A stretch of DNA of 32,124 nt from Desulfobia sp. (GTDB lineage: Bacteria; Desulfobacterota; Desulfobulbia; Desulfobulbales; SURF-16), in assembly GCA_041641775.1 (NCBI GenBank), contig JBEPXR010000004.1, positions 1 to 32,124 on the forward strand, written 5' to 3'. Both the position numbers and the translations under genes were made by a program. Positions 547 through 32,124 of this stretch are shown here, one piece after another (position 1 is the first letter of the stretch; every line of letters starts with the position of its first letter). The notes under the pieces were generated by a model. The model was not told the DNA's origin and made no database searches. It saw nothing but the letters and a program-made list of their open reading frames with translations.

Positions 547-548
547 GG

Positions 549-15399: not shown

Positions 15400-15642
15400 G
15401 ATTCCGGCAGGAAGTGGTTCGACTGCTCGGTTTTCTTTCGCTTTTCAGAGAGGCCAGATTTCTAAAAGCATCAAAACGTCAGATCATCGCAGTCCAGCTT
15501 AACAGATATAATGCGATTTTTCTATCTCGCTGATGAAATCCAGTTTTGTCCAGTGAGCCTGTCTGCAGGGTGTAGACTTGTTCCGAGGATATAGGCAATA
15601 ACAGAACTCGGCATCATGAAAAGGCCGGAGTTAGAGGGACTT

Positions 15643-15915: not shown

Positions 15916-15916
15916 T

Positions 15917-17039: not shown

Positions 17040-18110
17040 GTGAAGACGAACGGCAACCTTAACTATGGACACCAGACCGGGAGCAATGAAAAGGTAGTGG
17101 ACAAAGACAGCATCCTCCTCGATCATGGCAGCGGTGGTCTTGCCAGCCAGAAATTGGTCAGTGATATTTTCCTGAGCCAGCTGGATAATCCTTTTCTGGC
17201 CGGGCTGGAAGACAGCGCCGTTCTTGGAAAGATAGAAGGCCGCGTGGTCTTTACCACCGACAGCTATGTGGTTGATCCTCTCTTCTTTCCGGGGGGGGAC
17301 ATAGGGAGTCTATCCGTTCATGGTACGATTAACGATCTGGCCATGAGAGGAGCCCGGCCTATATGCCTGAGTCTGGGCTGCATTATTGAAGAAGGCTTTT
17401 CAATGGCTGATCTCAAGAGAATTGCCGCTTCAATCGCCGGGGCCTGCCGGGAGTCCGGTGTTGTCATAGCCACCGGTGATACCAAGGTAGTCCCAAGGGG
17501 GAAAGGAGACGGTATCTATTTGAATACTTCTGGAGTGGGTTCCGTCCCGGAGGATCTTACTGTTTCCACTTCCCTGGCCAGGCCGGGAGATAAGATAATC
17601 CTCTCCGGCACCATGGCAGACCACGGCATTGCCATTCTAACCAGTCGGACGGGACTAACAATGGAAGGTGATTTTCGGAGTGACAGCCAGCCCCTTCATT
17701 TTATGGTCGGAGAACTCTGTGAATCCCTCGCCGGAAATCTTCACAGTCTCAGAGATCCTACCAGAGGAGGGGTGGCGACTTCTCTCTGTGAAATAGCGTC
17801 AAGCAGCAGGGTGGGCATAATTATCGAAGAAAGTGCCCTGCCTGTAAGATCCCAAACTCGAGGGGCGTGCGAGATTCTCGGGCTTGAGCCATTATATCTT
17901 GCCAATGAAGGGAAATGTCTGGTAATAATTCGAGAAGAAAAGGCTGAACTGGCCCTGGAGATAATGCGCAACCGTTTGGAAGGCAGGGACGCCGTCATCA
18001 TCGGGAGTGTCACTGAAGGACCGGAAGGCAGAGTGGAGATGATCACCGGAATCGGGGGTAGAAGACTCATCGCTCCTCTGGCCGGTGAACCGTTGCCCAG
18101 AATATGTTAG
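17040..18110 (+). CDS. hypE: Carbamoyl dehydratase HypE
   Basis: HGSGG, TTDSYVV, GDTKVV, RDPTRGG, ANEGK, C-terminal PRIC. The start could be GTG 17097. Confidence 0.96.
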   Translation: MKTNGNLNYGHQTGSNEKVVDKDSILLDHGSGGLASQKLVSDIFLSQLDNPFLAGLEDSAVLGKIEGRVVFTTDSYVVDPLFFPGGDIGSLSVHGTINDLAMRGARPICLSLGCIIEEGFSMADLKRIAASIAGACRESGVVIATGDTKVVPRGKGDGIYLNTSGVGSVPEDLTVSTSLARPGDKIILSGTMADHGIAILTSRTGLTMEGDFRSDSQPLHFMVGELCESLAGNLHSLRDPTRGGVATSLCEIASSSRVGIIIEESALPVRSQTRGACEILGLEPLYLANEGKCLVIIREEKAELALEIMRNRLEGRDAVIIGSVTEGPEGRVEMITGIGGRRLIAPLAGEPLPRIC

Positions 18111-18231: not shown

Positions 18232-20442
18232 ATGGCCCAGCCCAAGAAGAAATCAACCCAGCAGACTTCTTTGCGGTCCACCGTAAAGGATCAGTCCGGC
18301 GCAGGAAAGACCAGGATCGGTGAAATACTGCGCAAAGAAGGCCAGATCCTGACCAGGCAGCTCGAGGAAGTCAAGCAGATCCAGAAGAAGACCGGCCAGC
18401 GGCTAAGCACGATCCTGGTTCAGCAAGGGCATATAGATGAAGATACGGTTGTCAAGGTTTTGAGCCGTATTCATAACTACAAGGCCGTTGATCTGACTAA
18501 AGAGCCTCCCAATCCCCAGGTTATCAAGATCGCACCTTTCGATACAGTCAAGAAGTACTGTGCCATGCCACTCAGGGTAAAGGATGACGTCCTGCACATT
18601 ACCATGGCTGAACCGACAGACACTTCCGCCGTGGAATCTCTTCAGTCTGAACTGAAGATGACCTTGTCTGTCGGTGTTTCTACGGAAAAGGACATTCTCA
18701 ACGCCTACAAGAAGTACTATAAGATCAGCGATGAAGAGTATAATAAACTGCTGGGCGGCAAGGAAGACGTAGAAGCCGAAGAGGAGGAAATTACCAGTGT
18801 TGACGATTTTGGTTCTCTCGCTTCGGAAGCTGCTGAAGAAGTCGCTCTTGAGGTGGAGGCAGGGGAGGAAGAAGCGGAAGAGTTTTCTTTCGGTGACGCC
18901 CCTATAATCAAGCTGGTAAACGGTATTCTGGTCAAGGCGGTCAAAGATGACGTCAGTGATATTCACATCGAGCCTTACGAAAAGAATCTCCAGATACGCT
19001 ACCGGCTTGACGGAGCCCTTTTCCGGGCCATGAATTTGCCTCTTTCCATCAAAAATGCGTTGATCTCCCGTGTAAAAATACTGGCTAATCTGGACATAAC
19101 CGAACGCAGGATTCCCCAGGACGGCAGGATAAAAATGAGGGTAGGGAAGAGCAAGATCGTCGATTTCCGGGTCTCTACCTTGCCCACCCTGTGGGGAGAA
19201 GGAATAGTTCTTCGTATTCTGGATAAAGGATCTCTCAATGTTGATCTGACCAAGCTGGGCTTCGAGGAAGATACTTATGCCGCCCTGAGACGGAGTCTTA
19301 ATATGCCCCAGGGGCTTCTTCTGGTTACCGGACCGACAGGAAGCGGTAAAACCGTGACCCTGTATTCAGCTCTGAATTCACTGAATACCGAAGATAATAA
19401 GCTCCTCACCGCAGAGGATCCGGTGGAATTCAACTTCAAGGGCATAAACCAGGTTAATGTCCGCGACGAAGTGGGGATGACTTTTGCCGCCGCTCTGAAG
19501 GCCTTTCTCCGCCAGGATCCAGATATAATCATGGTCGGTGAGATCAGGGATATGGAAACCGCTGAAATTGCGATCAAGGCCGCCATGACGGGCCATCTGG
19601 TTTTTTCCACTCTCCATACCAATGACAGTCCTTCCACCATCGGCCGTCTTGTAGATATAGGCGTCCCCTCGTACATGCTTTCAGCCTCCCTGACCATGGT
19701 GCAGTCACAAAGACTGGGGAGAAGGCTTTGCACGGAATGCCGTCGTCCCATCACTCTCCCGGACCAGGAGGAGTTGATCGGTCATGGCTTTGAGGAGGAA
19801 CAACTTGAAGGGCTTACCCTCTATGGTCCGGTGGGCTGCACCAGGTGTCGGGGCACCGGCTACAAGGGCAGGGTCGGTTTTTTCGAGTTAATGGAAGTCA
19901 CTGACGAGGTGGCCAAGGCGATCAGTGCGGAAGTGCCTGAAGATCAATTGAGAAAAGTAGCTATCCAGGAAGGCATGAAGCCCTTGCGCAAGGCGGCCAT
20001 CCAAAAGGCCATAAAAGGAGTTACAAGTCTTGACGAGGTCCTGAAGCGTACTGTTATTACTGAAGAGAGCCTGCCCGCCTACCTCGTCAATCCTGATATC
20101 GAGCTCTACGAGGATGGCGATGTCATAATTCACCAAAGCAATCAGGATATCGATTTTTTCCAGCTTATCCAGGGAACCCTGATGGTGGTCAGAGACGGGA
20201 ATAAAATAGCGGAAATAACCGAACCAAACGAATATTTTGGCGAGATGTCGGCTATATCCGGCGAACCCCGTTCTGCTTCGATCATATCCAAGGGCCGTAC
20301 TAAGATTAAAAGGTTCCCAGGAGATAAGATGATGGAGATTATAGAAAAACATCCCAAGGTGGCGAAGCATCTCTTCAAAACTCTGGTCAATCGCCTTTCC
20401 CAATCCAACCAGGTTCTGATTAATCTGGCCAAAAGAAGATAG
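18232..20442 (+). CDS. pilB: Type IV pilus assembly ATPase PilB with N-terminal MshEN motif and C-terminal cyclic-nucleotide-binding domain
   Basis: SDIHIEP, PQDGRI, Walker A GPTGSGKT, AEDPVE, LRQDPDIIMVGEIRD, TGHLVFSTLHTN, Zn motif CTEC...CTRC; extra ~110-aa C-terminal domain with FGEMS...PRSAS. Confidence 0.92.
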   Translation: MAQPKKKSTQQTSLRSTVKDQSGAGKTRIGEILRKEGQILTRQLEEVKQIQKKTGQRLSTILVQQGHIDEDTVVKVLSRIHNYKAVDLTKEPPNPQVIKIAPFDTVKKYCAMPLRVKDDVLHITMAEPTDTSAVESLQSELKMTLSVGVSTEKDILNAYKKYYKISDEEYNKLLGGKEDVEAEEEEITSVDDFGSLASEAAEEVALEVEAGEEEAEEFSFGDAPIIKLVNGILVKAVKDDVSDIHIEPYEKNLQIRYRLDGALFRAMNLPLSIKNALISRVKILANLDITERRIPQDGRIKMRVGKSKIVDFRVSTLPTLWGEGIVLRILDKGSLNVDLTKLGFEEDTYAALRRSLNMPQGLLLVTGPTGSGKTVTLYSALNSLNTEDNKLLTAEDPVEFNFKGINQVNVRDEVGMTFAAALKAFLRQDPDIIMVGEIRDMETAEIAIKAAMTGHLVFSTLHTNDSPSTIGRLVDIGVPSYMLSASLTMVQSQRLGRRLCTECRRPITLPDQEELIGHGFEEEQLEGLTLYGPVGCTRCRGTGYKGRVGFFELMEVTDEVAKAISAEVPEDQLRKVAIQEGMKPLRKAAIQKAIKGVTSLDEVLKRTVITEESLPAYLVNPDIELYEDGDVIIHQSNQDIDFFQLIQGTLMVVRDGNKIAEITEPNEYFGEMSAISGEPRSASIISKGRTKIKRFPGDKMMEIIEKHPKVAKHLFKTLVNRLSQSNQVLINLAKRR

Positions 20443-20766: not shown

Positions 20767-21648
20767 ATGAGTGCAAAGATTATTAGCGGTAAGGAAAACG
20801 CTCAGGCTATCAAGGAAGAACTGAAAGTAGAAGTTGATGAGCTCAAGGAAAAAGGTATTGTTCCCGGTCTGGTGACTATCCTGGTTGGTGATGATCCGGC
20901 GTCCCAGTCCTATGTTAATGCCAAGAATAAGACGGCCCATAATCTGGGCATCAATTCCGAGCAGATTAATCTTGATGCCGATGTCAGTGAAGAGGAGCTC
21001 CTTAACCTGGTAAAAAAGTATAACAACGACGACAAGGTCCACGGCATTCTTGTCCAGCTGCCGCTTCCCAAACATATTAACGACAGCAAGGTGCTCAATG
21101 CCATTAATCCTGACAAAGACGTCGATGGTTTTCACCCCGAAAACGTCGGAAGAATGGTTTTGGGCGAACAGTGCTTTCTGCCCTGCACCCCTCATGGTAT
21201 ATTGGAACTGCTTTCCAGGAGCGGCGTGGAGACCAGCGGTGCCGAAGTCGTCGTTGTTGGTCGTAGCAATATCGTCGGCAAACCCATAACCAATCTCATG
21301 CTCCAGAAGAGGAAAGGAGGCAATGCCACGGTAACCATTTGCCATACCGGAACCAGGGATATGAGCGTTCATACTAAAAAAGCTGATATAGTGATTGTGG
21401 CAGCGGGTGTTCCCAAGATGCTCACCGCAGATATGGTGAAGGACGGGGTTGTCGTAATCGATGTCGGGGTTAATCGTATGGGAATGACTGAGGAAGGCAA
21501 AGCCATTCTGGCCGGAGACGCCGACTTTGATACCATCAAGGAAAAAGCCGCGGCCATAACCCCGGTTCCCGGCGGGGTGGGACCAATGACCATAACGATG
21601 TTGATGAAAAATACCGTCCAGTCAGCCCGCCAGGCTGCCGGGTTGTAG
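20767..21648 (+). CDS. folD: Bifunctional methylenetetrahydrofolate dehydrogenase/cyclohydrolase FolD
   Basis: VGDDPASQSYV, GILVQLPLP, KDVDGFHP, PCTPHG, VVGRSNIVGKP, DVGVNR, TPVPGGVGPMT. Confidence 0.97.
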   Translation: MSAKIISGKENAQAIKEELKVEVDELKEKGIVPGLVTILVGDDPASQSYVNAKNKTAHNLGINSEQINLDADVSEEELLNLVKKYNNDDKVHGILVQLPLPKHINDSKVLNAINPDKDVDGFHPENVGRMVLGEQCFLPCTPHGILELLSRSGVETSGAEVVVVGRSNIVGKPITNLMLQKRKGGNATVTICHTGTRDMSVHTKKADIVIVAAGVPKMLTADMVKDGVVVIDVGVNRMGMTEEGKAILAGDADFDTIKEKAAAITPVPGGVGPMTITMLMKNTVQSARQAAGL

Positions 21649-21673: not shown

Positions 21674-23662
21674 ATGGCTACATCACGAACCGATTGTGAA
21701 GGTTGTAACGATATAACCTGTGGATCTACCCAGGATGTTCTGGCTCAGGATCTTTCTCAAAATATTATTACCGCCTATGATCGGATAGAGGCAAGGGGCA
21801 TGTCTGCCTGTCTGTTCGGTTCTGGGGGTACCTGCTGCCGGAACTGCAATATGGGCCCCTGTCAGATTATAGATGGGGTGCCAGACATGATCGGAGTATG
21901 CGGGGCAACGGCTGATACAGTTGCCGCCCGGAACTTCACCAGAACGATAGCCTCCGGTTCTGCAGCGCACACGGACCATGCCAGAGAGATGGTCAAAGGC
22001 TTTATCGATGCCGCCAAAGGCCACGGCCCTCATGGCATAAAAGATGGAAATAAGCTGAACATGCTGGCCGAGGTCTTCGGGGTCGAAACTGAAGACAGAT
22101 CCAAGGAGGAGATTGCCTTGGAGATCGGCGAGAAAGCCCTGGCTGATTTCGGTAAACAGGATGAAACCCCCATAACCATGGTCAATCGGGCTCCCAAGAA
22201 GCGCCAGGAGCTTTGGAAAAGGCTTGGCGTGACCCCCAGAGGAATTGATCGCGAAATCGTAGAGATGATGCATCGGACCCACATGGGTGTCGACCAGGAA
22301 TATCATAACTTGATGCTTCAGGGCACCCGCTCTGCATTGGCTGACGGCTGGGGCTCTTCCATGCTGTCCACTGAGCTGACTGATGTGATGTTCGGTACCC
22401 CAGTGCCAAGACGTGCTATTGTGGATCTCGGCGTATTACAGCCTGATCAGGTCAATGTCACTGTTCACGGCCATGAGCCTCTGCTCGCTGAGTCTCTCTG
22501 TCTGGCTGCTCAGGATGAAGAAATTCAGACGCTGGCCCAGAAGGCCGGAGCCAAAGGGGTCAATCTTGCTGGGGTCTGCTGTACCGGAAACGAGATTCTG
22601 ATGCGGCGTGGAATACCTGTCGCCGCAGGATTTATCCAGCAGGAGATGGCCCTGGCCACAGGTGCTATCGAGGCCATGGTCGTTGATGTCCAGTGTATAA
22701 TGCAGTCGGTCACAGATGTGGCCAAATCATTCCACACCGATATTATTACCACCAATTATCGGGCAAAAATGCCTGAATCTGTCCATATCCAGTTTGAAGA
22801 GGATAGGCCTCTGGAAAGCGCCAAGGAGATTCTGAAGAAGGCAATTGCCAATTACAGGAAACGGGAGACCTACTATATCCCCCAGGCCTCGAAATTCGAT
22901 GTGGTTGTCGGCTTCAGTCATGAAACCATAAATTATATGCTTGGTGGCCGCTTCCGCTCCAGTTACCGGCCCTTGAACGACAACATCATCAATGGCCGGA
23001 TTAGAGGGGTTGCAGCTATAGTTGGTTGTGACAATTACAAGATGATGGATAACCGCCACGAGATCATTGCCCGGGAATTGATCAAAAACGATGTTCTTGT
23101 TCTGGCCACAGGCTGTGCCGCCACCGGACTTGGCCGGGTGGGTCTCGTCCGTCCTGAGGCGGCAAAAGAGGCGGGCCCGGGTCTGTCTGAGGTCTGTGAA
23201 GCTGTGGGTATGCCTCCTGTTCTTCACTGCGGCAGCTGCGTTGACAACAGTCGCCTCCTGATAGCCGCTACCGAAATGGTTCGGGAGGGGGGACTGGGAG
23301 ATGATATATCTGATCTTCCGCTTGCAGGTACCGCCCCCAGCTGGATGAGCGAAAAGGCGGCCGCTATCGGACAGTATTTTGCTGCCAGCGGCTGTTATGT
23401 TGTTTTTCAGGGTCTGCCGGTCACCGGTGCCAAAAATTTTACCAAATTTCTCACTGAAGAGATGAAGGATATCTATGGCGGGCGCTGGGATATTGAAGAA
23501 GATCCTGTCAAGCTGGCACACAGGATGATCGCCAATATAGATGAAAAACGCAAGGCCCTCGGTATTGATAAACAGAAGGAGAGGGTCCTCTTTGACATGG
23601 AGATGCGGCGTGATATGGCAGGATCTGGTCTCAAAGATGCTGGATGTAAGGGACCTGCCTGA
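21674..23662 (+). CDS. cooS: Anaerobic Ni-dependent carbon monoxide dehydrogenase catalytic subunit (CooS/AcsA)
   Basis: D/B-cluster C-X7-CCRNCNMGPC...C; C-cluster ligands HGHEP, CCTGNE, DVQC, GCDN, TGCA, GSCVDNSR; catalytic AAHTDH and WMSEKA. Confidence 0.96.
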   Translation: MATSRTDCEGCNDITCGSTQDVLAQDLSQNIITAYDRIEARGMSACLFGSGGTCCRNCNMGPCQIIDGVPDMIGVCGATADTVAARNFTRTIASGSAAHTDHAREMVKGFIDAAKGHGPHGIKDGNKLNMLAEVFGVETEDRSKEEIALEIGEKALADFGKQDETPITMVNRAPKKRQELWKRLGVTPRGIDREIVEMMHRTHMGVDQEYHNLMLQGTRSALADGWGSSMLSTELTDVMFGTPVPRRAIVDLGVLQPDQVNVTVHGHEPLLAESLCLAAQDEEIQTLAQKAGAKGVNLAGVCCTGNEILMRRGIPVAAGFIQQEMALATGAIEAMVVDVQCIMQSVTDVAKSFHTDIITTNYRAKMPESVHIQFEEDRPLESAKEILKKAIANYRKRETYYIPQASKFDVVVGFSHETINYMLGGRFRSSYRPLNDNIINGRIRGVAAIVGCDNYKMMDNRHEIIARELIKNDVLVLATGCAATGLGRVGLVRPEAAKEAGPGLSEVCEAVGMPPVLHCGSCVDNSRLLIAATEMVREGGLGDDISDLPLAGTAPSWMSEKAAAIGQYFAASGCYVVFQGLPVTGAKNFTKFLTEEMKDIYGGRWDIEEDPVKLAHRMIANIDEKRKALGIDKQKERVLFDMEMRRDMAGSGLKDAGCKGPA

Positions 23663-23854
23663 TCGAAAGGCAAACGGGATGTGGAGCACGGGACATGATG
23701 TAAGGGCTTGATAGACAATCCCCCGAGGTAACTCCTTGATTACCTCCCCATATTAGGGAGCCTCTCTGTGAGCTCCCTGTCAGATTTACATAAGACCGGC
23801 AGTCCATAGCCGCAACCTGTCTCTGGACAGCTATATGGCCTGCAGTCAGTGCGC

Positions 23855-23896
23855 CTGAACTCTGAACTCACGGTCCCGAACTCTGAACCTTGAATT
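23855..23896 (+). repeat. Degenerate 7-bp tandem repeat (consensus CTGAACY), six units
   Basis: CTGAACT CTGAACT CACGGTC CCGAACT CTGAACC TTGAATT, immediately upstream of the metF-acsD start. Confidence 0.6.
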
Positions 23897-23917
23897 TACC
23901 AAACAAACAGGAAATAT

Positions 23918-26542
23918 ATGAAAGCTGGAAGCCGATTAGAAAAGATTCTCACTTCAGGTGAATTTGCTGTTACCGGAGAGCTCGGTCCGCCAAAAAGCGG
24001 AAGATCTGAAGTGGTCCGGGAAAAGGCAAGACTGCTGAAAGACTATGTGGATGCAGTCAATATAACTGACTGCCAAACCGCAATAGTCAGAATGTCCAGT
24101 ATAGGAGCCGGCCTCCTGGTTTTACAGGAAGGGGTCGAGCCCGTCATTCAGATGACCTGCCGGGACAGAAACAGGATAGGCATGCAGAGTGACATTCTTG
24201 GCGCCTCTGCTCTGGGGCTCAAAAATCTGCTCTGCCTGACCGGGGATCACCAGAAGTTTGGCAATCATCCCGGTGCCAAAGGGGTCTTTGATATGGACTC
24301 CATCCAGATGCTCGGAATGATGAAAGGAATGCGGGACGACAGCGTTTTCCAGTGTGGAGAAGAAATAAAAACCGATGCCCCTGAGTTGTTTCTCGGTTGC
24401 GCTGCCAACCCATTTGCCTACCCTCATGAGTTCAGGGCGACACGGCTGGCGAAGAAAGTCAATAGCGGAGCGGATTTTGTCCAGACCCAGATCGTCTATA
24501 ATCTGGATCGGTTCAGGGAATTCATGAAGATGGTTCGTGATCTGGGAGTTCATGAAAATACGTACATTCTGGCAGGTGTGACTCCCCCTAAGTCGCTTGG
24601 AATGGCAAGATACATGAAAAAAAATGTCCCGGGGCTGGATGTGACCGACGAAGTTATAGACCGGCTGCAGGATGCTTCCGATAAGGCTGAAGAGGGTATA
24701 AATATTTGTGTGGATATCATAAACCAGGTGAAAGACATCGAAGGAGTCGCTGGTGTCCACATAATGGCGATCGAATGGGAGGAAGCTGTCCAGGAGATTG
24801 TCAAAAGGGCAAAACTTGATAAACGCCCCCAGGTTGATCTTGAAATGCCTGGTTCTGTCCAGCCAGCCAGAGAAACGGTCGCAGTGCGCGGGACAGCTGA
24901 GGAAGATGTTGAGGCGGAGAGAGAACGCATTTTGGCCGAAGCCAGAGAAGAGGCTGCCAGAATGGTTGAATCTGCCCGGAAGCAGGTTGAACTGAAAGGA
25001 GAAATTCCATCCGGAGATGACGCAGGAGAGCATGAAATGAATGAAAAAGAGCGCCAGGCGGCCCTGGAAGCCGTCAATAGTGGTCTTAGGGCATTAAAGA
25101 CATCGTTGAATCTGAGTGATGAACAGTTCGAGGCATTGACCAGTTTTGCCGGAGCTGAAGCAATATTAAAAAAAGAGCCCCCTAAATCCGGCACACTGAA
25201 ATCCGTCCCGGTACCAAGTGTGACCGAGCAGGCCGAATCTGTTCCAGCGACTGAGACAGGCGCTGAAGCAGAAAAGGCCGAGGAGTCCAGGAAAGCTGAA
25301 GAAGCCAAAAAGGCTGAGGAAGCCAGGCAGAAGGCGGAAGAAGCTAAAAAGGCAGAAGAAGCTAAGAAAGCCGAGGAGACCAGAAAGGCTGAAGAGGCTA
25401 AAAAGGCAGAAGAAGCTGAAAAAGCCGAAGAAGCCAAAAAGGCGGAAGAAGCCAGAAAGGCTGAAGAGGCCAGGAAAGCCGAGGAAGCGGTAAAGACGGC
25501 TCCCGAACCTGAGAAGAAAGAGGTGAGTACACCGGCCAGTGCGGAACTTTCCGCTGCAGAACTTGATCGGGAAAAATCTTCTCTGGGTGAAAGGGCCTCC
25601 AAGGTGCCTGCGGACTCCTATACCATGAAATATACCGGCCAGATCAGGGAGACCGTCCTCGGCAATGGGAATAATCAGGTCAAGGTTGGGGGGGAACAGG
25701 TCCTGCCATTTCATCAGTTTGAAGGTAATATCCCCAATAAGCCCCTGATTGCCATGGAGGTACCCGACGTCAAGCCTGAGGAATGGCCCGAATCTCTTAT
25801 CCGGCATTTTGAAGATGTTAAGGACAGCCCGCTGGACTGGGCCCGTAAATGCATTAACGAATATAAAGCGGAAGCTATCTGTCTCTCCCTGGGCAGCACA
25901 GACCCCAACGGCAAGAACCGGTCTGCAGCTGAAGCCGCCAAGGATGCGGCCGAGGTTATCAACAACGTTGATGTTCCGGTTATCGTGTGGGGCTGCGGTA
26001 ATTCCGAAAAGGATACTGAGAGCTTGAGAGAAGTAACTGCCCAGATCGGCGACAAGAAGGTCTGTCTGGCTCCCTTGGAGGATACCAATTACAAATCGCT
26101 GGGTGCTACAGCCATGGCCTTCCAGCATCCCATGGTCGCAGCTTCTCCCATAGATGTCAACCTCGCCAAGCAGCTCAATATTCTTCTGGAGAATCTGGGA
26201 GTTTCTCTCGACACCATTTTGATGGATCCTTCCATAGGCGCCCTTGGCTATGGAATAGAGTATACCTACTCTGTGATGGAGAGGATACGTCTTGCCGCCC
26301 TCACCCAGCAGGATGAGAAACTGCAGAACGGCTTGATCTGCAACCTGGGAGTACAGGTCTGGAAGGCGAAGGAAGCCAAATTGCCCACCGACGACATGAT
26401 GGGCGATATGGAAAAACGGGGTATTATGATGGAGGCTATAACCGCATCCTGCATGCTTCTGGCAGGTGGTGAAGTTCTGATTATGAGGCATCCCAAAGCC
26501 GTTAATCTCACCAAGTCCCTTATCAAGGGGCTGTTAGGATAA
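23918..26542 (+). CDS. Fusion protein: methylenetetrahydrofolate reductase (MetF), helical/low-complexity linker, corrinoid Fe-S protein small subunit (AcsD/CdhD)
   Basis: aa 1 to ~304 are MetF (GELGPPK, DAVNITD, QMTCRDRNR, LCLTGD, GADFVQTQ, GVHIMAIEWEE). aa ~568-874 are AcsD (VGGEQVLPFHQFEG, STDPNG, SPIDVNLAKQLN, MDPSIGALGYGIEYTYSVMERIR, MRHP). One continuous frame. Confidence 0.9.
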   Translation: MKAGSRLEKILTSGEFAVTGELGPPKSGRSEVVREKARLLKDYVDAVNITDCQTAIVRMSSIGAGLLVLQEGVEPVIQMTCRDRNRIGMQSDILGASALGLKNLLCLTGDHQKFGNHPGAKGVFDMDSIQMLGMMKGMRDDSVFQCGEEIKTDAPELFLGCAANPFAYPHEFRATRLAKKVNSGADFVQTQIVYNLDRFREFMKMVRDLGVHENTYILAGVTPPKSLGMARYMKKNVPGLDVTDEVIDRLQDASDKAEEGINICVDIINQVKDIEGVAGVHIMAIEWEEAVQEIVKRAKLDKRPQVDLEMPGSVQPARETVAVRGTAEEDVEAERERILAEAREEAARMVESARKQVELKGEIPSGDDAGEHEMNEKERQAALEAVNSGLRALKTSLNLSDEQFEALTSFAGAEAILKKEPPKSGTLKSVPVPSVTEQAESVPATETGAEAEKAEESRKAEEAKKAEEARQKAEEAKKAEEAKKAEETRKAEEAKKAEEAEKAEEAKKAEEARKAEEARKAEEAVKTAPEPEKKEVSTPASAELSAAELDREKSSLGERASKVPADSYTMKYTGQIRETVLGNGNNQVKVGGEQVLPFHQFEGNIPNKPLIAMEVPDVKPEEWPESLIRHFEDVKDSPLDWARKCINEYKAEAICLSLGSTDPNGKNRSAAEAAKDAAEVINNVDVPVIVWGCGNSEKDTESLREVTAQIGDKKVCLAPLEDTNYKSLGATAMAFQHPMVAASPIDVNLAKQLNILLENLGVSLDTILMDPSIGALGYGIEYTYSVMERIRLAALTQQDEKLQNGLICNLGVQVWKAKEAKLPTDDMMGDMEKRGIMMEAITASCMLLAGGEVLIMRHPKAVNLTKSLIKGLLG
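25274..25492 (+). repeat. Coding tandem repeat: 12 copies of KAEE(A/S/T)x (18-bp unit, one 21-bp unit) inside the metF-acsD linker
   Basis: KAEESR KAEEAK KAEEARQ KAEEAK KAEEAK KAEETR KAEEAK KAEEAE KAEEAK KAEEAR KAEEAR KAEEAV, with synonymous codon variation between units. Confidence 0.95.
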
Positions 26543-26649
26543 AAAGTATGAGTTAAGATTTGTAAATTGCCAATCATGTCATACAGATAACCAGGATTCT
26601 GATTCGTAATTTACTGATCCGTAAGTAAATTTAACAGGAGCCAAACCCT

Positions 26650-28854
26650 ATGTCTAAAATAATCTGTTCAGCCGCGATCAGGGGAGCCCACAAAATAGTC
26701 GATATGGCTGAGGAAAAGTTTGAAGCTGTTCTGAAGGAATATGGTCCGGAACAGGAGGTTACCTTTCCGAACACAGCCTATTATCTCCCTGTAGTTTACA
26801 GCATGCTCGGCGCGAAGATCGAACGCCTTGGAGACATGAAGGATATTTTCCAGGAGTGCCGTAAACTTCTCCCGGAGGAAGTCAGCGAAACCAAGTGGCT
26901 TCCCTACCTCGCTCCTGCCCTGGACGCCGGGATGGCTACTTTTTTCGCCGAGGAGATGTACGAAGCCATAAAATATCTGGAGACTCCCGACCTCTATACC
27001 AAAACCGAAGATCCAACTGAAGACAACCTGTGGCTGGGAGCTGCTGACGACTTAATCTTCCGGAAGAGAGGAGTAGAATTCGTAGACGGCACAGCGCCAG
27101 GATTTGCTGCTATTATGGGTTCTCCAGCCGATAAGGAGATGGCCAGTAAGATCGCCCTGGAACTCCAGGAAAAAAATCTCTATATATTCATGCACGACCA
27201 GACAGACGGGATCTCCATGCCTGAGCAGCTGATAAAAAATGACGTTCAGGTAGGGTGGAGTACCAGATTGGTTCCTTTCGGGAAATCATATACTTCCGCG
27301 GTTTTCTCAATCGGGTTTGCCTGCCGGGTGGCCATGGCCTTCGGTGGAGTGAAGCCGGGAGACTATCGTGAGAACCTGATCTATAATAAAAACCGGACCT
27401 TCGCCTTTGTCATGCCCTTTGGACCGGTGAGCGACGAATGGTATGCCAACGCAGCCGGGGCTATTAACTGGGGATTTCCTACTATATCCGACTACGATAT
27501 CCCAGAGGTGCTCCCGACAGGAATCTGTACTTACGAGCATGTGGTGAGCAACATTCCCCACGAAGAGATTGTGCAGAAGGCTATAGAAGTTCGGGGGCTT
27601 AAAGTCAGCATCACCAAGATTGATATTCCCATGTCTTTCGGACCCGCCTTCGAAGGTGAACGGATCAGGAAGGACGATCTGTTTATGGAATGCGGGGGGG
27701 GGCGCACTGAGGCGGTGGAGCTCCTGGTATCCAAGGAGATGGACGAGGTGACTGACGGGGAGATCACTCTGGAAGGCAAGGATATCCAGGATATCAGCGA
27801 GGGAGAGAATCTTCCTCTGGCTATTCTGGTAGAAGTTGCCGGCCGGGAAATGCAGTCTGATTTTGAGCCCATTCTGGAAAGGCAGTTTCATCATCTGATC
27901 AACTACACCCAGGGTATCATGCATATCGGCCAGCGTAATATCATGTGGGTAAGAATTGGCAAGGCTGCAGTCGAAAAAAAGTTCTCTTTCAAGCACATCG
28001 GAAAGGTTCTTCATGGAAAACTTCATCAGGAGTTCGGCAGCATCGTGGATAAGGTCCAGGTGAAACTCTATACTGAGCTCGACAAAGTTAAAGAGGTTAA
28101 CGAGCTTGCCAAACAGACCTATGAGGAAAGAGACCGCAGGCTGGGTAATATGACTGATGACACGGAAGAAGTCTTCTACTCCTGCACCCTCTGTCAATCC
28201 TTTGCTCCCAGCCACGTTTGTGTAATTACCCCGGAGAGGGTGGGTATGTGCGGAGCCTACAACTGGCTGGACGGCAAGGCATCTTACCAGATCAATCCAA
28301 CCGGTCCCAATCAGCCCATAGAGAAAGGCGAATGCACCGACTCTGTACTCGGCGATTTTACCGGGATAAATGAATTCGTCAGTCAGGCATCCCGGGGAGC
28401 CGTGCCAGCGGTCAGCTGCTACTCTCTGATGAATAATCCCATGACTGCCTGCGGTTGTTTCGAATGTATCGCCGCCATGCTGCCTCAGTGCAACGGAATT
28501 ATGGTTGTTAACCGTGATTATATGGGGATGACGCCGAGCGGCATGAAATTTACTTCTCTGGCCGGCATGGCCGGTGGAGGTGCTCAGACCCCGGGTTTTA
28601 TGGGAATAAGCAAACACTATTTGACCAGTCGGAAGCTTTTCATGGCCGAAGGCGGCCTGAAAAGGGTGGTCTGGCTTCCCAAGATGCTCAAGGAAGAGCT
28701 CAAGGATAAATTGCAGACACGCTGTGAAGAATTAGGCATGCCCGAACTCTTTGATATGATTGCCGATGAAGAAGTCGGAATCACTGAAGAAGAGATTCTG
28801 CCCTTCCTCAAGGAGAAGGGGCATCCCGCTCTTGAAATGGAAACCGCTATGTAG
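26650..28854 (+). CDS. acsB: Acetyl-CoA synthase catalytic subunit AcsB (bacterial type)
   Basis: FPNTAYYLP N-terminal domain, GPAFEGERIR, A-cluster ligands YSCTLCQSFAPSHVC...GMCGA and MTACGCFECI. SD AGGAG. Confidence 0.96.
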   Translation: MSKIICSAAIRGAHKIVDMAEEKFEAVLKEYGPEQEVTFPNTAYYLPVVYSMLGAKIERLGDMKDIFQECRKLLPEEVSETKWLPYLAPALDAGMATFFAEEMYEAIKYLETPDLYTKTEDPTEDNLWLGAADDLIFRKRGVEFVDGTAPGFAAIMGSPADKEMASKIALELQEKNLYIFMHDQTDGISMPEQLIKNDVQVGWSTRLVPFGKSYTSAVFSIGFACRVAMAFGGVKPGDYRENLIYNKNRTFAFVMPFGPVSDEWYANAAGAINWGFPTISDYDIPEVLPTGICTYEHVVSNIPHEEIVQKAIEVRGLKVSITKIDIPMSFGPAFEGERIRKDDLFMECGGGRTEAVELLVSKEMDEVTDGEITLEGKDIQDISEGENLPLAILVEVAGREMQSDFEPILERQFHHLINYTQGIMHIGQRNIMWVRIGKAAVEKKFSFKHIGKVLHGKLHQEFGSIVDKVQVKLYTELDKVKEVNELAKQTYEERDRRLGNMTDDTEEVFYSCTLCQSFAPSHVCVITPERVGMCGAYNWLDGKASYQINPTGPNQPIEKGECTDSVLGDFTGINEFVSQASRGAVPAVSCYSLMNNPMTACGCFECIAAMLPQCNGIMVVNRDYMGMTPSGMKFTSLAGMAGGGAQTPGFMGISKHYLTSRKLFMAEGGLKRVVWLPKMLKEELKDKLQTRCEELGMPELFDMIADEEVGITEEEILPFLKEKGHPALEMETAM

Positions 28855-28951: not shown

Positions 28952-30307
28952 ATGGCCTTAACAGGTATCCAGATACTGAAGATGCTGCCCAAAAAAAATT
29001 GTGGCGAGTGTGGAATTCCGACTTGTCTGGCCTTTGCCATGAAGGTAGCCGCCGGGCAGGCTGAAGTAGAGAAGTGTCCCTATGTTTCAGAGGAGGCCAA
29101 GGCGACCATTGGTGAAGCTTCAGCCCCTCCAATTCGAACCGTTAAGTTAGGTGAGGGGGAATCCTCCTTTACTACCGGTGGCGAAACCTGCCTTTTCAGG
29201 CATGAAAAGCGGTTTGAAAATCCTACTGGCCTGGCAGTGCTAATCCGTACAGACATGGCTGATCAGGATATTGAAGGACGGATAGAACGTTTCAAAGACC
29301 TTCGCTATGAGAGGGTCGGAGTCATGATGAAAGCGCAACTTATTGCCGTCAAGGACGCGGATGGTGACAAGGAGAAGTTCGTGACTCTGGTTAAAAAAGT
29401 TCTGGAATCCACAGATGATGCCGCGCTCATCCTGATGAGTGAGAAAGCCGAAAATCTCAAGGCCGGGGCCGAAGCTTGCGGAGAACGTAAGCCTCTCCTT
29501 TATGGAGTTAATTCGGAAAACGTTGATGACATGGCCAATCTGGCCAATGAAAGCGGTTGTCCACTGGGAATTAAAGGCAGCAATGTTGATGATACGGTTA
29601 CTATTTCCGAGAAACTCCAGGAAGGTGGGCTTAAGGATATGGTCATAGATACCGGGGCCAGAACTCTGCGGGCCGCTTTTGAAGATAATGTCGTGGCCAG
29701 AAGTTCAGCAATCAAGGCCAAATACAAGCCATTGGGATTTCCCACAATAACTTTCCCCTGTGAGATGACCGATGACCCGATGATGGAAGCCATGGTTGCC
29801 TCTGTGCTTATAGCCAAATATGCCGGAATCGTCGTCCTTTCAGATCTCCAGGGTGATATCCTCTTTCCCCTGCTGCTGGAGCAACTGAATCTTTTTACCG
29901 ATCCTCAACGGCCCATGGTCCAGAAGGAAGATCTTTACAATATCAATGGTCCTGGAGAGGATTCGCCGGTCCTGGTCACTTGTAACTTCTCTCTCACCTA
30001 TTTTATCGTATCCGGAGAGATAGAAGGCAGTAAAGTTCCGTCCTGGTTGATCGTCAAGGATACCGAGGGGTTGTCTGTGTTGACCGCCTGGGCTGCCGGT
30101 AAATTCGGTGCTGATCTCATTGCCCAGTTTATCAAGAAATCAGGTATAGAGGATAAAGTCAATCATCGTGATCTAATCATCCCCGGCTATCTTGCCAGCA
30201 TGAAGGGTGAACTGGAAGAAGAGCTGCCAGATTGGAATATTGTTATTGGCCCCCGGGAAGCGGGTCATCTTCCTGCTTTTCTGAAGGATTGGAAGCCCAG
30301 CAAGTAA
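28952..30307 (+). CDS. acsC: Corrinoid Fe-S protein large subunit AcsC (CdhE/gamma)
   Basis: LPKKNCGECGIPTCLAFA...KCPY [4Fe-4S] motif, FRHEKRF, FTDPQRP, NFSLTYF, GLSVLTAWAAGKF, GPREA. Confidence 0.96.
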   Translation: MALTGIQILKMLPKKNCGECGIPTCLAFAMKVAAGQAEVEKCPYVSEEAKATIGEASAPPIRTVKLGEGESSFTTGGETCLFRHEKRFENPTGLAVLIRTDMADQDIEGRIERFKDLRYERVGVMMKAQLIAVKDADGDKEKFVTLVKKVLESTDDAALILMSEKAENLKAGAEACGERKPLLYGVNSENVDDMANLANESGCPLGIKGSNVDDTVTISEKLQEGGLKDMVIDTGARTLRAAFEDNVVARSSAIKAKYKPLGFPTITFPCEMTDDPMMEAMVASVLIAKYAGIVVLSDLQGDILFPLLLEQLNLFTDPQRPMVQKEDLYNINGPGEDSPVLVTCNFSLTYFIVSGEIEGSKVPSWLIVKDTEGLSVLTAWAAGKFGADLIAQFIKKSGIEDKVNHRDLIIPGYLASMKGELEEELPDWNIVIGPREAGHLPAFLKDWKPSK

Positions 30308-30546: not shown

Positions 30547-32124
30547 ATGTCTACAATTACTCTGGAGATAAACGGCTCCGAAATCGTCGCTGAAAACGGA
30601 CTGACGATTCTTGAAATTGCCCGTCGAGCCGAAATCAATATACCAGCCCTGTGCTCCATCGACCGTAAAAGCAGTGAGGTTCCCTGCGGTCTCTGTCTGG
30701 TTGAAATAGAAGGCATAGAAAAGCCTGTCCGAGCCTGCCAGGCCGTTGCCAAGGAAGGGATGCAAGTTGTTACTGAAAGCGATCAGCTCAAGGAAATGCG
30801 GACTTCCCGTCTTGCTGCCATGTCATCCGTTCACTTCGGCGACTGTAAGGCCCCTTGCAATCTCACCTGTCCCGGGCAAATCAATGTTCAAGGTTATATA
30901 GCGCATGTCCGCAAAGGAGAGTATGAAGAAGCACTTCGGCTTATCATGGAGAAAAATCCTTTTCCCTTCTCCGTGGGCAGGGTCTGTCCCCGCTTCTGCG
31001 AGACCAGATGCCGCCGCCTCCTTGTTGACGAACCCATCGCCATCAACCATCTTAAGAGATTTGTGGCAGACTGGTGCATGTCATCGGGCCTGGATATCGG
31101 TTTTGACAGAGCCGAGGCTACTGGTAAGAGAGTTGCCATAATTGGCGGTGGTCCGGCGGGAATGACAAGCGCTTTTTATCTGTCGAGAAAGGGGCATGAC
31201 GTTACCGTTTTTGAAGCGAACCCTAAGCTGGGAGGCATGCTGCGCTACGGACTGCCTGAATACAAGATTCCCCGGGATGTTCTTGATTATGAACTTGAAA
31301 CCCTTCTCAGACTCGGCATTTCTGTCCGGCTGAGCCAGAGATGGGGGGCCGATTTTTCCCTCCAGGATCTCAAGGAACTGGGTTACGATGCCATCCTCAT
31401 TACGATAGGAACGGGAGTGGACAAGCCCCTGGAGATTGAGGGGGCCACTCACCCTAAGGTGTTGATGGCAACCGACTTTCTCAAGCAGATCTCCACCACG
31501 TCGAGCAAAGGCCACTACGGCCGGGAGGCTGCAGTGATAGGCGGCAATAACATTGCCATGGAGACTGCCAGGTCCCTGCTGCGCAACGGAGTCGACAGCG
31601 TGACCGTCGTCTATTTCCGAGGCCGTGAAGAGATGCCGGCCAACCAGCGTAATATCAGGGAGGCAGAAGAAGAGGGAGTGGAATTTCTTCTGATGGCATC
31701 CCCCGTAAAAATCCAGGAGAATGGCCAGGGGCTTCTCGAGGTGGAACTGGTCCGGATGCGTTATGGCGAACCGGACGAGAAAGGCAGGCGTTATCCGGAG
31801 GCCATTCCTGGGACTTCGCAGATACTCAGGGTCGATACCCTGATTTCCTCTCAGGGTCAGATGGCCTTCAGCGATGAGGGCTATTCAGGTGAACTTGAAA
31901 AAGAGCTCGCCTTAAAACCCGGCAATATCATCAAGGCTTCTCCCCGGGATTCAGCCACCTCGGTGGAGGGGGTCTTTGCCGCAGGCGATGCAGCCAGCGG
32001 CTCCCGGAGTGTCATCCAGGCTGTGGTTTCAGCCCGAAGAGCGGCTGATAACATTGATGCCTACATAACTGGAGAGGCCAAGACAGCGGCCCCCAGTCGT
32101 TTTAATTTCACCAGAGGCAGTTCT
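30547..32124 (+). CDS. Fe-S flavoprotein oxidoreductase: N-terminal [2Fe-2S] (NuoG/Fdh-like) domain plus GltD/NfnB/SfrB-like FAD/NAD(P) domain (3' part beyond the window)
   Basis: Not in ORF track because it has no stop in the window. MSTITLEING...IPALC...PCGLCLVEIEG...RAC; GDCKAPCNLTCP; GRVCPRFCETRC; VAIIGGGPAG; GGMLRYGLPEYKIP; GVFAAGDA. Frame open to 32124. Confidence 0.9.
   Translation, partial: MSTITLEINGSEIVAENGLTILEIARRAEINIPALCSIDRKSSEVPCGLCLVEIEGIEKPVRACQAVAKEGMQVVTESDQLKEMRTSRLAAMSSVHFGDCKAPCNLTCPGQINVQGYIAHVRKGEYEEALRLIMEKNPFPFSVGRVCPRFCETRCRRLLVDEPIAINHLKRFVADWCMSSGLDIGFDRAEATGKRVAIIGGGPAGMTSAFYLSRKGHDVTVFEANPKLGGMLRYGLPEYKIPRDVLDYELETLLRLGISVRLSQRWGADFSLQDLKELGYDAILITIGTGVDKPLEIEGATHPKVLMATDFLKQISTTSSKGHYGREAAVIGGNNIAMETARSLLRNGVDSVTVVYFRGREEMPANQRNIREAEEEGVEFLLMASPVKIQENGQGLLEVELVRMRYGEPDEKGRRYPEAIPGTSQILRVDTLISSQGQMAFSDEGYSGELEKELALKPGNIIKASPRDSATSVEGVFAAGDAASGSRSVIQAVVSARRAADNIDAYITGEAKTAAPSRFNFTRGSS

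What the first reader, a model, noticed from the sequence alone, without database searches (positions are those of the whole stretch)
23918..26542. MetF (MTHFR) fused to the corrinoid Fe-S protein small subunit AcsD: a tethered methyl-branch module of the Wood-Ljungdahl pathway
Seen: one 874-aa frame holds a complete MetF TIM barrel, a ~265-aa linker and a complete AcsD, between cooS and acsB-acsC. Established: MetF interconverts methylene- and methyl-THF, AcsE moves the methyl group to or from the AcsC/AcsD corrinoid, and metF and acsD are normally separate genes. Inference: the fusion ties MTHFR to the CFeSP. If the MetF domain oligomerises as many MetF proteins do, it could scaffold several CFeSPs into a bacterial multienzyme complex analogous to archaeal ACDS. 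I know of no characterised example, but cannot search for one.
Basis: partly seen in the sequence, partly recalled or inferred. Interest (0 to 1): 0.85.

Follow-up and report, generated by a model that had tools for sequence, protein, structure and literature searches.

The report
MetF–AcsD fusion gene, already noted
One gene in this sulfur bacterium's carbon-fixation cluster really does join methylene-tetrahydrofolate reductase to the small subunit of the corrinoid iron-sulfur protein, but the fusion is widespread in its relatives, was already noted in print, and has never been studied biochemically.

Summary
Window 23918-26542 (+) is one uninterrupted 874-aa frame. It has a full MTHFR domain (res 6-298), a ~269-aa linker and a full AcsD/CdhD domain (res 568-872). 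It lies between cooS and acsB-acsC.

It is not an artefact. The same end-to-end frame is found in 28 of 40 genomes of the family and 89 of 151 of the order. Longer-linker forms occur in other classes of the phylum. In 5 of 5 genomes checked it is the only AcsD. On a tree, the MetF domains of fused forms group together.

The linker is not featureless. It holds a conserved helical hairpin (res ~368-420) and a KAEEA-repeat long helix. A model supports MetF-domain homodimerisation (score 0.88, best control 0.00).

The architecture is not new. The Desulfurivibrio alkaliphilus genome paper lists "mthfr/acsD ... fusion" with the same pulE-folD-acsA-fusion-acsB-acsC layout, and cites a 2008 paper. No characterisation was found.

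Verdict: a real, conserved, previously noted fusion. The tethering and scaffold mechanism remains inferred.

The parts
23918..26542 (+). Whole fusion ORF, 874 aa plus stop: MetF - linker - AcsD
   Evidence: both Pfam families on one chain
23918..24817 (+). MetF (MTHFR) TIM-barrel domain, res 1-300, of the MetV-partnered Wood-Ljungdahl type
   Evidence: PF02219 at res 6-298. Best NCBIfam match is the MTHFR half of NF006396 (216.6 bits); only 58.9 bits to TIGR00676. 60-65% identical to stand-alone MetF of anammox bacteria and Chloroflexota. 'LTGDH' and 'VQTQ' align to 'LRGD' and 'ITQ' of solved MTHFRs. The predicted homodimer interface lies in res 24-155.
24818..25018 (+). Linker part 1, res 301-367: a poorly conserved stretch plus a predicted helix at res 329-359
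   Evidence: Column identity to the query 0.22-0.46. Helix 329-359 has 10-residue block pLDDT of 65-78.
25019..25177 (+). Conserved linker module, res ~368-420: a two-helix hairpin (376-396, 401-417). Function unknown.
   Evidence: L383 and G389 are invariant, and E378, L390, L393, Q403, F404, A406, F410, A413, L417 are >=90% conserved in 40 fused sequences. The alignment is shown. pLDDT ~70. Found only in fused forms or their fragments.
25178..25549 (+). Low-complexity spacer, res 421-544: a P/A/T-rich stretch, then KAEEA(K/R) repeats predicted as one long helix (res 459-521)
   Evidence: Tandem repeat 25265-25488, period 18 nt, ~12 copies. Helix 459-521 has pLDDT 53-58. Spacer length varies from 76 to 257 aa among 40 fused proteins.
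25550..25618 (+). Conserved segment just before the AcsD barrel, res 545-567 (R559 invariant)
25619..26539 (+). AcsD (CFeSP small subunit) TIM-barrel domain, res 568-874
   Evidence: NCBIfam models at res 568-872. phmmer E 2.2e-79 to the Moorella CFeSP small subunit 4djd_D and 3.2e-77 to 2h9a_B.
18232..20442 (+). PilB/PulE-type ATPase with an MshEN domain and a C-terminal cNMP-binding domain; upstream neighbour of the cluster
   Evidence: 'pulE' is in the abbreviation list of the published D. alkaliphilus paper.
20767..21648 (+). folD (methylene-THF dehydrogenase/cyclohydrolase)
21674..23662 (+). cooS/acsA (Ni-CODH catalytic subunit)
   Evidence: TIGR01702, 629 bits against a cut-off of 478
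26650..28854 (+). acsB (acetyl-CoA synthase)
   Evidence: NF040764, 1085.7 bits against a cut-off of 800
28952..30307 (+). acsC (CFeSP large subunit)
   Evidence: NF003195, 601 bits against a cut-off of 306
30547..32124 (+). 2Fe-2S + GltD/NfnB-like flavoprotein, cut by the contig end. In relatives it continues into a selenocysteine formate dehydrogenase alpha subunit.
   Evidence: relatives; TGA inside 'HCARYUHSPT' in L012

Best explanation
The ORF is a genuine, conserved bifunctional gene. It is an orthologue of the 'mthfr/acsD' fusion already noted for Desulfurivibrio alkaliphilus. Its C-terminal domain is the only AcsD in the genome, so it must pair with AcsC to form the corrinoid iron-sulfur protein. 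The CFeSP of these bacteria therefore carries a covalently tethered methylene-THF reductase.

The MetF domain is of the MetV-dependent Wood-Ljungdahl type. In related lineages its gene sits directly behind hdrA-like, mvhD, fer4, mvhD and metV genes. In a same-genus relative of this organism a fer4-mvhD-metV trio lies elsewhere in the genome.

Shown here: the single frame, both domains, family- and order-wide conservation, sole-AcsD status, clustering of the fused forms on the MetF tree next to an unfused metV-metF-acsD-acsB arrangement, and a structured linker.

Inferred: the 224-465-aa tether keeps the producer of methyl-THF within roughly 10-20 nm of the CFeSP that consumes the methyl group through AcsE. 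That distance is my own estimate from the linker length, not a computed result. The tether also fixes a 1:1 stoichiometry. Because the MetF barrel is predicted to homodimerise, it may bridge two CFeSPs.
For: Single frame with both domains.

Database relatives: all 120 of the 120 best hits listed are 830-918 aa and carry PF02219 plus PF03599. In total 1088 hits had E<=0.001 among the 8000 candidates scored.

Genome surveys: the query matched end to end in one stop-free frame in 28 of 40 family genomes and 89 of 151 order genomes (my row counts). Outside the order, fused frames of 844-1174 aa occur in 9 further families. ORFs of 839-1111 aa were verified in 9 fetched loci.

Sole AcsD: a PF03599 search finds only AcsC and the fusion above ~135 bits in 5 of 5 genomes (G000, G029, G058, G457, G321).

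Tree of 106 MetF domains: 35 fused plus 3 adjacent forms lie on one side of a branch (SH-aLRT 95) against 68 stand-alone forms. The unfused metV-metF-acsD-acsB of L051/L052 is sister to all fused forms.

Catalytic-motif positions D110 and Q189/Q191 are invariant in 40 of 40 sequences and align to the 'RGD' and 'TQ' motifs of solved MTHFRs. The AcsD domain has E 2e-79 to the Moorella CFeSP small subunit.

Electron-module context: hdrA-like, mvhD, fer4, mvhD and metV lie directly upstream of the fusion in L013 and L014. A fer4-mvhD-metV trio is present in same-genus G029.

Linker: a conserved hairpin and a long predicted helix.

Homodimer model of res 1-430: score 0.88, best of 3 controls 0.00. 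The mark was reached by 20 of 30 proteins solved as pairs and 1 of 23 solved as single chains. Runs agree in >=55% of contacts and the partner pLDDT is >=76. MTHFR homo-oligomers have been solved, so the pass may reflect likeness to those.

Published naming of the fusion, with the same abbreviations for neighbouring genes.
Against: There are no expression or protein data. No RNA run holds the stretch, which says nothing either way.

MetV (PF12225) was not found in this genome, which is 83.6% complete. acsE is not in the window; only candidates on other contigs were found.

The AcsD domain scores below the cut-off of NCBI's 'WLP_AcsD' exception model (311.8 against 430).

Relatives carry two more MTHFR-domain genes, in frames of ~640 aa and ~520 aa. 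Which MTHFR serves the pathway is therefore not proven.

A long, partly disordered linker could be cleaved after translation. Fusion alone does not show substrate channeling, and AcsE is still needed between the two domains' reactions. One lineage (G407) has split the gene again without losing it, so covalent linkage is not essential.
Confidence: 0.7

Rival explanations
1. Supercomplex core. A dimer of MetF domains, each with MetV, MvhD, a ferredoxin-like protein and the HdrA-like flavoprotein, bridges two CFeSPs. Through them it would link CODH/ACS into a bacterial methyl-branch metabolon analogous to archaeal ACDS. The conserved linker hairpin would serve as a docking site, for example for AcsE or AcsB.
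For: The predicted MetF-domain homodimer (0.88 against 0.00 for the best control). The fusion is the sole AcsD. hdrA-like, mvhD, fer4, mvhD and metV lie immediately upstream of the fusion in two lineages, and an hdrA-like gene lies in the same cluster in G058. The conserved hairpin has no other explanation.
Against: No partner of the hairpin was tested, and no biochemical data exist. The dimer pass may be recalled from solved MTHFR oligomers. In the Desulfobulbales the metV trio is unlinked from the cluster.
Confidence: 0.25
2. Co-expression convenience only. The fusion fixes equal synthesis of two pathway proteins, or arose by neutral loss of a stop between adjacent metF and acsD. The domains act independently, possibly after proteolytic cleavage in the linker.
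For: The unfused adjacent arrangement metV-metF-acsD-acsB exists in the sister lineage. There is a secondary fission in G407. The spacer is low-complexity and highly variable in length.
Against: A neutral read-through would not be expected to keep a conserved 50-aa module with invariant residues and a repeat helix across classes. The fusion is retained in 28 of 40 family genomes and 89 of 151 order genomes; most of the rest are contig-end fragments.
Confidence: 0.2
3. The MetF half is a non-catalytic, pseudo-enzyme scaffold, and another MTHFR does the chemistry.
For: Other MTHFR-domain genes exist: the YitJ-type at G000:C99, and ~520-aa MetF-MetV-like frames in relatives.
Against: The MetF half has mostly 0.6-0.99 column identity to the query and about 110 invariant columns in res 1-300. 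These include the aligned RGD-type Asp and TQ-type Gln. It is 60-65% identical to stand-alone pathway MetFs.
Confidence: 0.04
4. Assembly or annotation artefact: a lost stop or a frameshift peculiar to this contig.
For: The linker contains a 224-nt imperfect tandem repeat, which is a place where assemblies can err.
Against: The frame is open end to end in 28 of 40 family genomes and 89 of 151 order genomes. An identical Logan contig exists, though probably from the same reads. One apparent split in relative G027 coincides with a run of N in the linker.
Confidence: 0.01

Closest known systems
'mthfr/acsD' fusion of Desulfurivibrio alkaliphilus AHT2 / delta proteobacterium MLMS-1 (Melton et al. 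2016, PMC5016858; it cites Pierce et al. 2008, which I could not read)
   Same: Same domain order. The neighbours match the paper's abbreviation list: pulE, folD, acsA, mthfr/acsD, acsB, acsC. The database protein that NCBI names as from D. alkaliphilus (P0041, 893 aa) is 68% identical over alignment A1.
   Different: Different genus and family. The paper only labels the gene in a figure and calls it 'methylene-THF reductase' in the text. It gives no distribution, linker analysis or biochemistry.
CFeSP AcsC/AcsD of Moorella thermoacetica and Carboxydothermus hydrogenoformans (PDB 4djd, 2h9a)
   Same: The C-terminal 305 residues align over nearly the whole small subunit (E 2e-79 and 3e-77). acsC and acsB are adjacent.
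   Different: The solved small subunits are 310-323-aa stand-alone proteins. Here about 567 extra N-terminal residues carry an enzyme and a structured tether.
MetFV-type MTHFRs of acetogens: the MetFV heterodimer of C. ljungdahlii (PMC8515935, passages read), and the MetFV-HdrABC-MvhD complex of Moorella as described in PMC10553843 and PMC8515935 (passages read)
   Same: A small MetF without an NAD(P)H domain. metV, mvhD, a ferredoxin-like gene and an hdrA-like gene are next to it in related lineages.
   Different: There MetF is a separate polypeptide. No hdrB or hdrC was identified here, and the subunit composition is untested.
YitJ-type bifunctional homocysteine S-methyltransferase/MTHFR (NF006396)
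   Same: Another fusion of an MTHFR barrel to a consumer of its product, methyl-THF. The MetF domain here scores best against that model's MTHFR half. A ~635-aa frame of this type is in the same genome.
   Different: The partner domain and the pathway (methionine synthesis) differ. In YitJ the MTHFR is C-terminal and there is no long linker.
Archaeal ACDS (CdhABCDE) multienzyme complex
   Same: The concept only: CFeSP subunits held in one assembly with other pathway activities.
   Different: ACDS contains no MTHFR, and its CdhD is not fused to one. No assembly has been shown here.

Membership tests
MTHFR / MetF (Pfam PF02219) | Sequence match over the curated cut-off that covers the whole barrel | tested here: met
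   125 bits against 24; model positions 1-286 of 287
MTHFR / MetF (Pfam PF02219) | Conserved active-site Asp ('RGD'-type motif) and Gln ('TQ' motif). The roles of these residues are recalled from E. coli MetF work and come from no call. | tested here: met
   'LTGDH' aligns to 'LRGD', and 'FVQTQ' aligns to 'FIITQ' and 'FAITQ' of human and Thermus MTHFR. D110, Q189 and Q191 are invariant in 40 of 40 sequences.
MTHFR / MetF (Pfam PF02219) | FAD binding and methylene-THF reductase activity | not testable with these tools
   Needs purified protein
MetFV-type MTHFR | A MetV (PF12225) partner encoded in the genome | tested here: inconclusive
   Not found in G000, which is 83.6% complete. Found in 5 of 5 other genomes searched, including both same-genus ones. 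It is adjacent to the fusion in L013 and L014.
AcsD / CdhD, CFeSP small subunit (PF03599; NCBIfam NF003376) | Sequence match over the curated cut-off | tested here: met
   PF03599 scores 151 against 24.8. NF003376 scores 379.4 against 280. It is below the cut-offs of NF003377 (480.6 against 527) and of the exception model NF040759 WLP_AcsD (311.8 against 430).
AcsD / CdhD, CFeSP small subunit | Full-length likeness to solved small subunits, with acsC and acsB alongside | tested here: met
   for the solved subunits; for the neighbours
AcsD / CdhD, CFeSP small subunit | Forms a heterodimer with AcsC | not tested
   Inferred, because it is the only AcsD in 5 of 5 genomes
Published 'mthfr/acsD' fusion (Melton 2016) | N-terminal MTHFR and C-terminal AcsD on one gene, among pulE, folD, acsA, acsB and acsC | tested here: met
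   compared with the paper's abbreviation list and the Fig. 3 legend. The figure itself is not held.
Archaeal ACDS-like multienzyme complex | Stable co-assembly of CODH, ACS, CFeSP and further activities | not testable with these tools
   Only a homodimer model of res 1-430 was run
ER/K-type single alpha-helix spacer | A long isolated helix of alternating acidic and basic residues | tested here: inconclusive
   KAEEA(K/R) repeats. Predicted as one helix at res 459-521, but with pLDDT of only 53-58.

The most novel reading that the evidence does not exclude
The fusion protein is the organising core of a bacterial 'methyl-branch metabolon'. A MetF-domain dimer loaded with MetV, MvhD, a ferredoxin-like protein and the HdrA-like flavoprotein is joined through semi-rigid KAEEA helices to two CFeSPs. 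The conserved linker hairpin (res 368-420) recruits AcsE or ACS. Methyl groups made by a possibly electron-bifurcating MTHFR would then be handed to acetyl-CoA synthase inside one assembly, as a bacterial counterpart of archaeal ACDS.
Probability: 0.2. Interest if true: 0.7.

Novelty: already known. Interest (0 to 1): 0.3.

Why it matters
These organisms include sulfur disproportionators, Desulfurivibrio and Desulfocapsa relatives, and lineages with Thermodesulfatator and Dissulfuribacterales names. In them the only CFeSP small subunit is welded to the enzyme that makes methyl-THF.

This is a natural experiment on whether the methyl branch of the Wood-Ljungdahl pathway benefits from physical coupling to CODH/ACS. 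It also bears on what donates electrons to MTHFR outside acetogens, which is an open bioenergetic question.

There is a practical consequence for annotation. Pipelines name the gene for only one half. Genome papers then list it as just 'MTHFR', or report 'acsABC' without naming acsD. Pathway-completeness calls that rely on query coverage can therefore misjudge these genomes.

The new elements here are the distribution of the fusion, the clustering of the fused forms on the MetF tree next to an unfused sister arrangement, the conserved linker module, and the predicted dimer. The architecture itself is not new.

Tried and rejected
RNA evidence: no RNA holder was listed for 24700-25750. The only holder is a DNA run that may be the window's source.

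Read support: only Logan contigs were available, so no raw-read check of the repeat was possible.

Operon signals: promoter-like sites numbered 12 against 10.5±3.4 in shuffles, and terminator-like sites 10 against 11.5±3.6. Nothing exceeds chance.

Internal start for a separate AcsD: M570 (ATG at 25625) sits at the AcsD boundary. It has no Shine-Dalgarno-like sequence upstream, and the position is not conserved in the 40-sequence alignment. Rejected as a conserved mechanism.

Linker module in other proteins: phmmer with res 325-425 against 1.84 billion representatives gave 5 hits at E<=0.001. Their lengths were 69, 71, 84, 436 and 921 aa. I read them as fragments or fused forms but did not inspect them further. 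Pfam found nothing in the linker except a sub-threshold low-complexity hit.

Apparent splits in relatives: in G027 the break coincides with a run of N in the linker. G025, G038 and G008 are cut at contig ends. G039 has TGA stops and frame changes and was not examined. G289/L020 gave a 755-aa ORF with an odd N-terminus that I did not resolve.

Papers that do not mention the fusion, by 'find' passages only: PMC10553843, PMC3584212, PMC9676032, PMC8780430, PMC4911364, PMC7117923, PMC8515935, PMC7857596, PMC12827605, PMC11247825.

Searches that returned nothing relevant. led to the paper that names the fusion. One search found that phrase in that paper only.

Not held: the PNAS 2019 cable-bacteria paper and Pierce et al. 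2008. Whether the 2008 paper says more about the fusion is unknown to me.

S10 Fig of PMC10553843 and the supplementary tables and trees of PMC12827605 may show or mis-score this gene, and I could not see them.

Tree: rows dropped were loci whose BLAST alignment to res 1-305 was under 290 residues (L027, L047), L045 (no ORF hit in my script), L020 and L024. The method was 'quick' (SH-aLRT only), the root was at the midpoint, and no AU test was run.
Full report
OBSERVATION. Window 23918-26542 (+) is one 874-codon frame with an ATG start and no internal stop. An AGGA lies 8 nt upstream of the start. Pfam places a complete MTHFR domain at residues 6-298 (model 1-286 of 287; 125 bits, cut-off 24). 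It places CdhD at residues 579-824 (151 bits, cut-off 24.8). NCBIfam delta-subunit models extend the AcsD match to residues 568-872; NF003376 scores 379.4 against a cut-off of 280. The gene lies in the series pilB/pulE-like ATPase (18232-20442), folD (20767-21648), cooS (21674-23662), the fusion, acsB (26650-28854), acsC (28952-30307). A 2Fe-2S/GltD-like flavoprotein follows and runs off the contig end (30547-32124).

IS IT REAL? A second assembler's contig from run X1 covers 23800-26650 with no difference. That run may be the window's own source, so I give it little weight. The decisive evidence is comparative.

- All 120 of the 120 best database hits listed are 830-918 aa and carry both Pfam families. 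In total 1088 hits passed E<=0.001 among the 8000 candidates scored.
- In whole genomes, the query is matched end to end in one stop-free frame in 28 of 40 genomes of the family. Of the other 12, ten hold pieces cut by contig ends, N runs or frame breaks, and two hold only paralogue-level matches.
- The same holds in 89 of 151 genomes sampled from the order, across its 17 families (my row counts).
- The class contains only this order.
- In a phylum sample of 301 genomes, fused frames also occur outside the order. They are 844-913 aa in family f42, and 1004-1174 aa in eight further families, where the two halves match as two segments of one frame.
- I fetched ten of these loci and found fused ORFs of 839-1111 aa in nine.
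- Named contigs put the fusion in Desulfocapsa, Desulfobulbus, Desulfurivibrio, Dissulfuribacterales and a Thermodesulfatator MAG.

Most other members of the phylum have a ~310-aa MetF (58-63% identical) and a separate ~320-aa AcsD.

ORIGIN. I built a quick maximum-likelihood tree of 106 MetF domains: 68 stand-alone, 35 fused and 3 adjacent but unfused. It places all fused and adjacent forms on one side of a branch (SH-aLRT 95).

The sister of all fused forms is L051/L052, one of which is named Candidatus Desulfaltia bathyphila. There the genes run metV, metF (328 aa), a ~200-nt gap, acsD (318 aa), acsB, with no linker. This is what a pre-fusion state would look like.

One split form (G407: MetF of 306 aa, then a 447-aa linker-AcsD) is nested among fused forms, so it reads as a secondary fission. 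The tree is rooted at the midpoint and no AU test was run. A single origin is therefore consistent with the data, not proven.

ANATOMY OF THE LINKER. Forty fused sequences were aligned; they are 49-75% identical to the query. Both barrels are well conserved, with column identity to the query mostly 0.6-0.99. The linker is heterogeneous:

- Residues 301-367 are poorly conserved.
- Residues ~368-420 form a conserved module. L383 and G389 are invariant, and nine further positions are >=90% conserved.
- Residues 421-544 are a low-complexity spacer of variable length (76-257 aa).
- Residues 545-567 are conserved again (R559 invariant).

Total linker length ranges from 224 to 465 aa. The spacer in this window contains ~12 copies of an 18-nt unit encoding KAEEA(K/R).

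An AlphaFold2 model built on this alignment has mean pLDDT 73.4 and pTM 0.47. It gives two TIM barrels, a helix at 329-359, a two-helix hairpin at 376-396 and 401-417 (pLDDT ~70), and one long helix at 459-521 (pLDDT 53-58). A phmmer search with residues 325-425 against 1.84 billion representatives returned only five hits. By their lengths and match positions these look like fragments or fused forms. The module appears specific to this fusion. Its function is unknown.

WHAT THE TWO HALVES ARE. The AcsD half aligns over essentially the whole solved CFeSP small subunits of Moorella (4djd_D, E 2.2e-79) and Carboxydothermus (2h9a_B, E 3.2e-77). A PF03599 search of five genomes (this one, a same-genus relative, and three others from two further classes or families) finds only AcsC and the fusion as strong matches. 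The fusion is thus the only AcsD available to build the CFeSP.

The MetF half is distant from E. coli-type MetF (TIGR00676, 58.9 bits against a cut-off of 293.7). It is nearest to the MTHFR half of NF006396 (216.6 bits). It is 60-65% identical to stand-alone MetF proteins of anammox Planctomycetota, Chloroflexota and Actinomycetota. Its 'LTGDH' and 'VQTQ' motifs align with the 'LRGD' and 'ITQ' motifs of solved human and Thermus MTHFRs, and they are invariant in the 40 fused sequences. I recall from the E. coli MetF literature that these hold the catalytic Asp and Gln; no call tested that. I therefore regard the domain as catalytic, but this is untested.

ELECTRON-INPUT CONTEXT. In two lineages outside the order (L013, L014) the fusion is directly preceded by an HdrA-like flavoprotein (~950 aa), MvhD, a poly-ferredoxin, a second MvhD and MetV (PF12225). 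It is followed by acsB, acsC, acsE and a GltD-like~FdhA gene.

In one complete genome of the order (G058) the cluster is folD, cooS, fusion, acsB, acsC, GltD-like~FdhA, HdrA-like, then an MvhD fragment. There the FdhA frame is interrupted by a TGA inside 'HCARYUHSPT', the classic selenocysteine site.

In a same-genus relative (G029) a fer4-mvhD-metV trio sits at another locus. In the window's own genome PF12225 was not found, but that genome is only 83.6% complete. acsE candidates lie on other contigs.

The MetF domain is thus of the MetV-partnered type known from acetogens (PMC8515935, passages read). It is plausibly fed by an Hdr/Mvh-like module. This is inference from gene neighbourhood.

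MECHANISM. Shown: one chain carries the CFeSP small subunit and a MetF barrel, joined by a 224-465-aa tether that has a conserved module and a probable long helix.

Inferred: the tether holds MTHFR within roughly 10-20 nm of the CFeSP (my own estimate from the linker length). It fixes a 1:1 ratio and raises the local concentration of methyl-THF for AcsE.

A homodimer model of residues 1-430 supports binding. The score is 0.88, and the best of 3 controls is 0.00. The mark was reached by 20 of 30 proteins solved as pairs and 1 of 23 solved as single chains. The runs agree in >=55% of contacts, and the partner pLDDT is >=76. The interface lies within residues 24-155 of the barrel, not in the linker. 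MTHFR homo-oligomers have been solved, so the pass may reflect that likeness. If the dimer is real, each fusion dimer would carry two AcsD domains and could bridge two CFeSPs. Nothing here shows an ACDS-like complex.

IS IT KNOWN? Eight literature searches and ten papers read by passages gave no mention of the fusion. Genome papers list the gene simply as 'methylenetetrahydrofolate reductase' (T. dismutans), or list 'acsABC' without naming acsD and report two metF copies with metV absent (Ca. Desulfobulbus rimicarensis).

[quoted passage not shown] The same list holds pulE, folD, acsA, acsB and acsC. The paper states that its Fig. 3 is based on the MLMS-1 clusters defined by Pierce et al. 2008. 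A phrase search found that wording in this paper only, and the 2008 paper is not held.

The architecture, in the same gene order as this window, has therefore been noted in print at least since 2016 and probably since 2008. I found no biochemical, structural or proteomic work on it, and neither its breadth nor its linker appears to have been described.

VERDICT. The novelty is low: an orthologue of an already noted fusion. The feature is a good, unexploited target for biochemistry, so I score interest at 0.3. The boldest reading not excluded is a supercomplex core built on a MetF dimer, with the hairpin as a docking site. I give that about 0.2 probability.

Noticed in passing
window 30547-32124 (3' open); L012 5979-10223 (-); L013 13934-18046; L014 3470-5938: The gene after acsC is a 2Fe-2S + GltD/NfnB-like flavoprotein. 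In relatives it continues, on the same chain, into a formate dehydrogenase alpha subunit. In L012 that frame is interrupted by a TGA inside 'HCARYUHSPT', a selenocysteine-type site. This would be an unusual NfnB-like~FdhA fusion sitting in the acs cluster.
   Followed up: partly
window 18232-20442: A PilB/PulE-type ATPase carrying an N-terminal MshEN (c-di-GMP-binding type) domain and a C-terminal cyclic-nucleotide-binding domain sits directly upstream of folD. 'pulE' is also in the abbreviation list of the published D. alkaliphilus paper, so the odd pairing with the acs cluster seems conserved.
   Followed up: partly
G000:C99:3644-4468 (-), L002: The genome's only other MTHFR domain lies in a ~635-aa frame. 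I take this to be a YitJ-type homocysteine methyltransferase/MTHFR fusion (not scanned), which would be a second case of MTHFR fused to a methyl-THF consumer. Relatives also have ~520-aa frames that combine MTHFR and PF12225 matches.
   Followed up: no
L019 (G407:C2) 797-3118 (-): In one small-genome lineage the fusion is split again into MetF (306 aa) and a 447-aa linker-plus-AcsD gene in the same frame, separated by a stop and ~57 nt. The conserved linker module stays with AcsD.
   Followed up: partly
G039:C58:124340-127014 (-): In one family member the fusion gene appears in four pieces with TGA stops and frame changes. It may be a pseudogene or a poor assembly.
   Followed up: no
L013 1342-6548; L014 13408-18753; L012 2871-5723: A ~950-aa HdrA-like flavoprotein with ferredoxin domains at both ends accompanies the cluster in three lineages. 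In two of them it is followed by mvhD, fer4, mvhD and metV directly upstream of the fusion. No hdrB or hdrC was seen in these stretches.
   Followed up: partly
G000:C297:1398-1748 (+): A weak CdhD-family match (39.5 bits, model positions 267-383) in a 399-aa frame elsewhere in the genome. It could be another corrinoid-protein-like gene and was not examined.
   Followed up: no
window 17040-18110: hypE (hydrogenase maturation; TIGR02124, 417 bits) lies just upstream of the pilB-like gene. The ORFs further upstream in the window (1-17000) were listed but not annotated.
   Followed up: no
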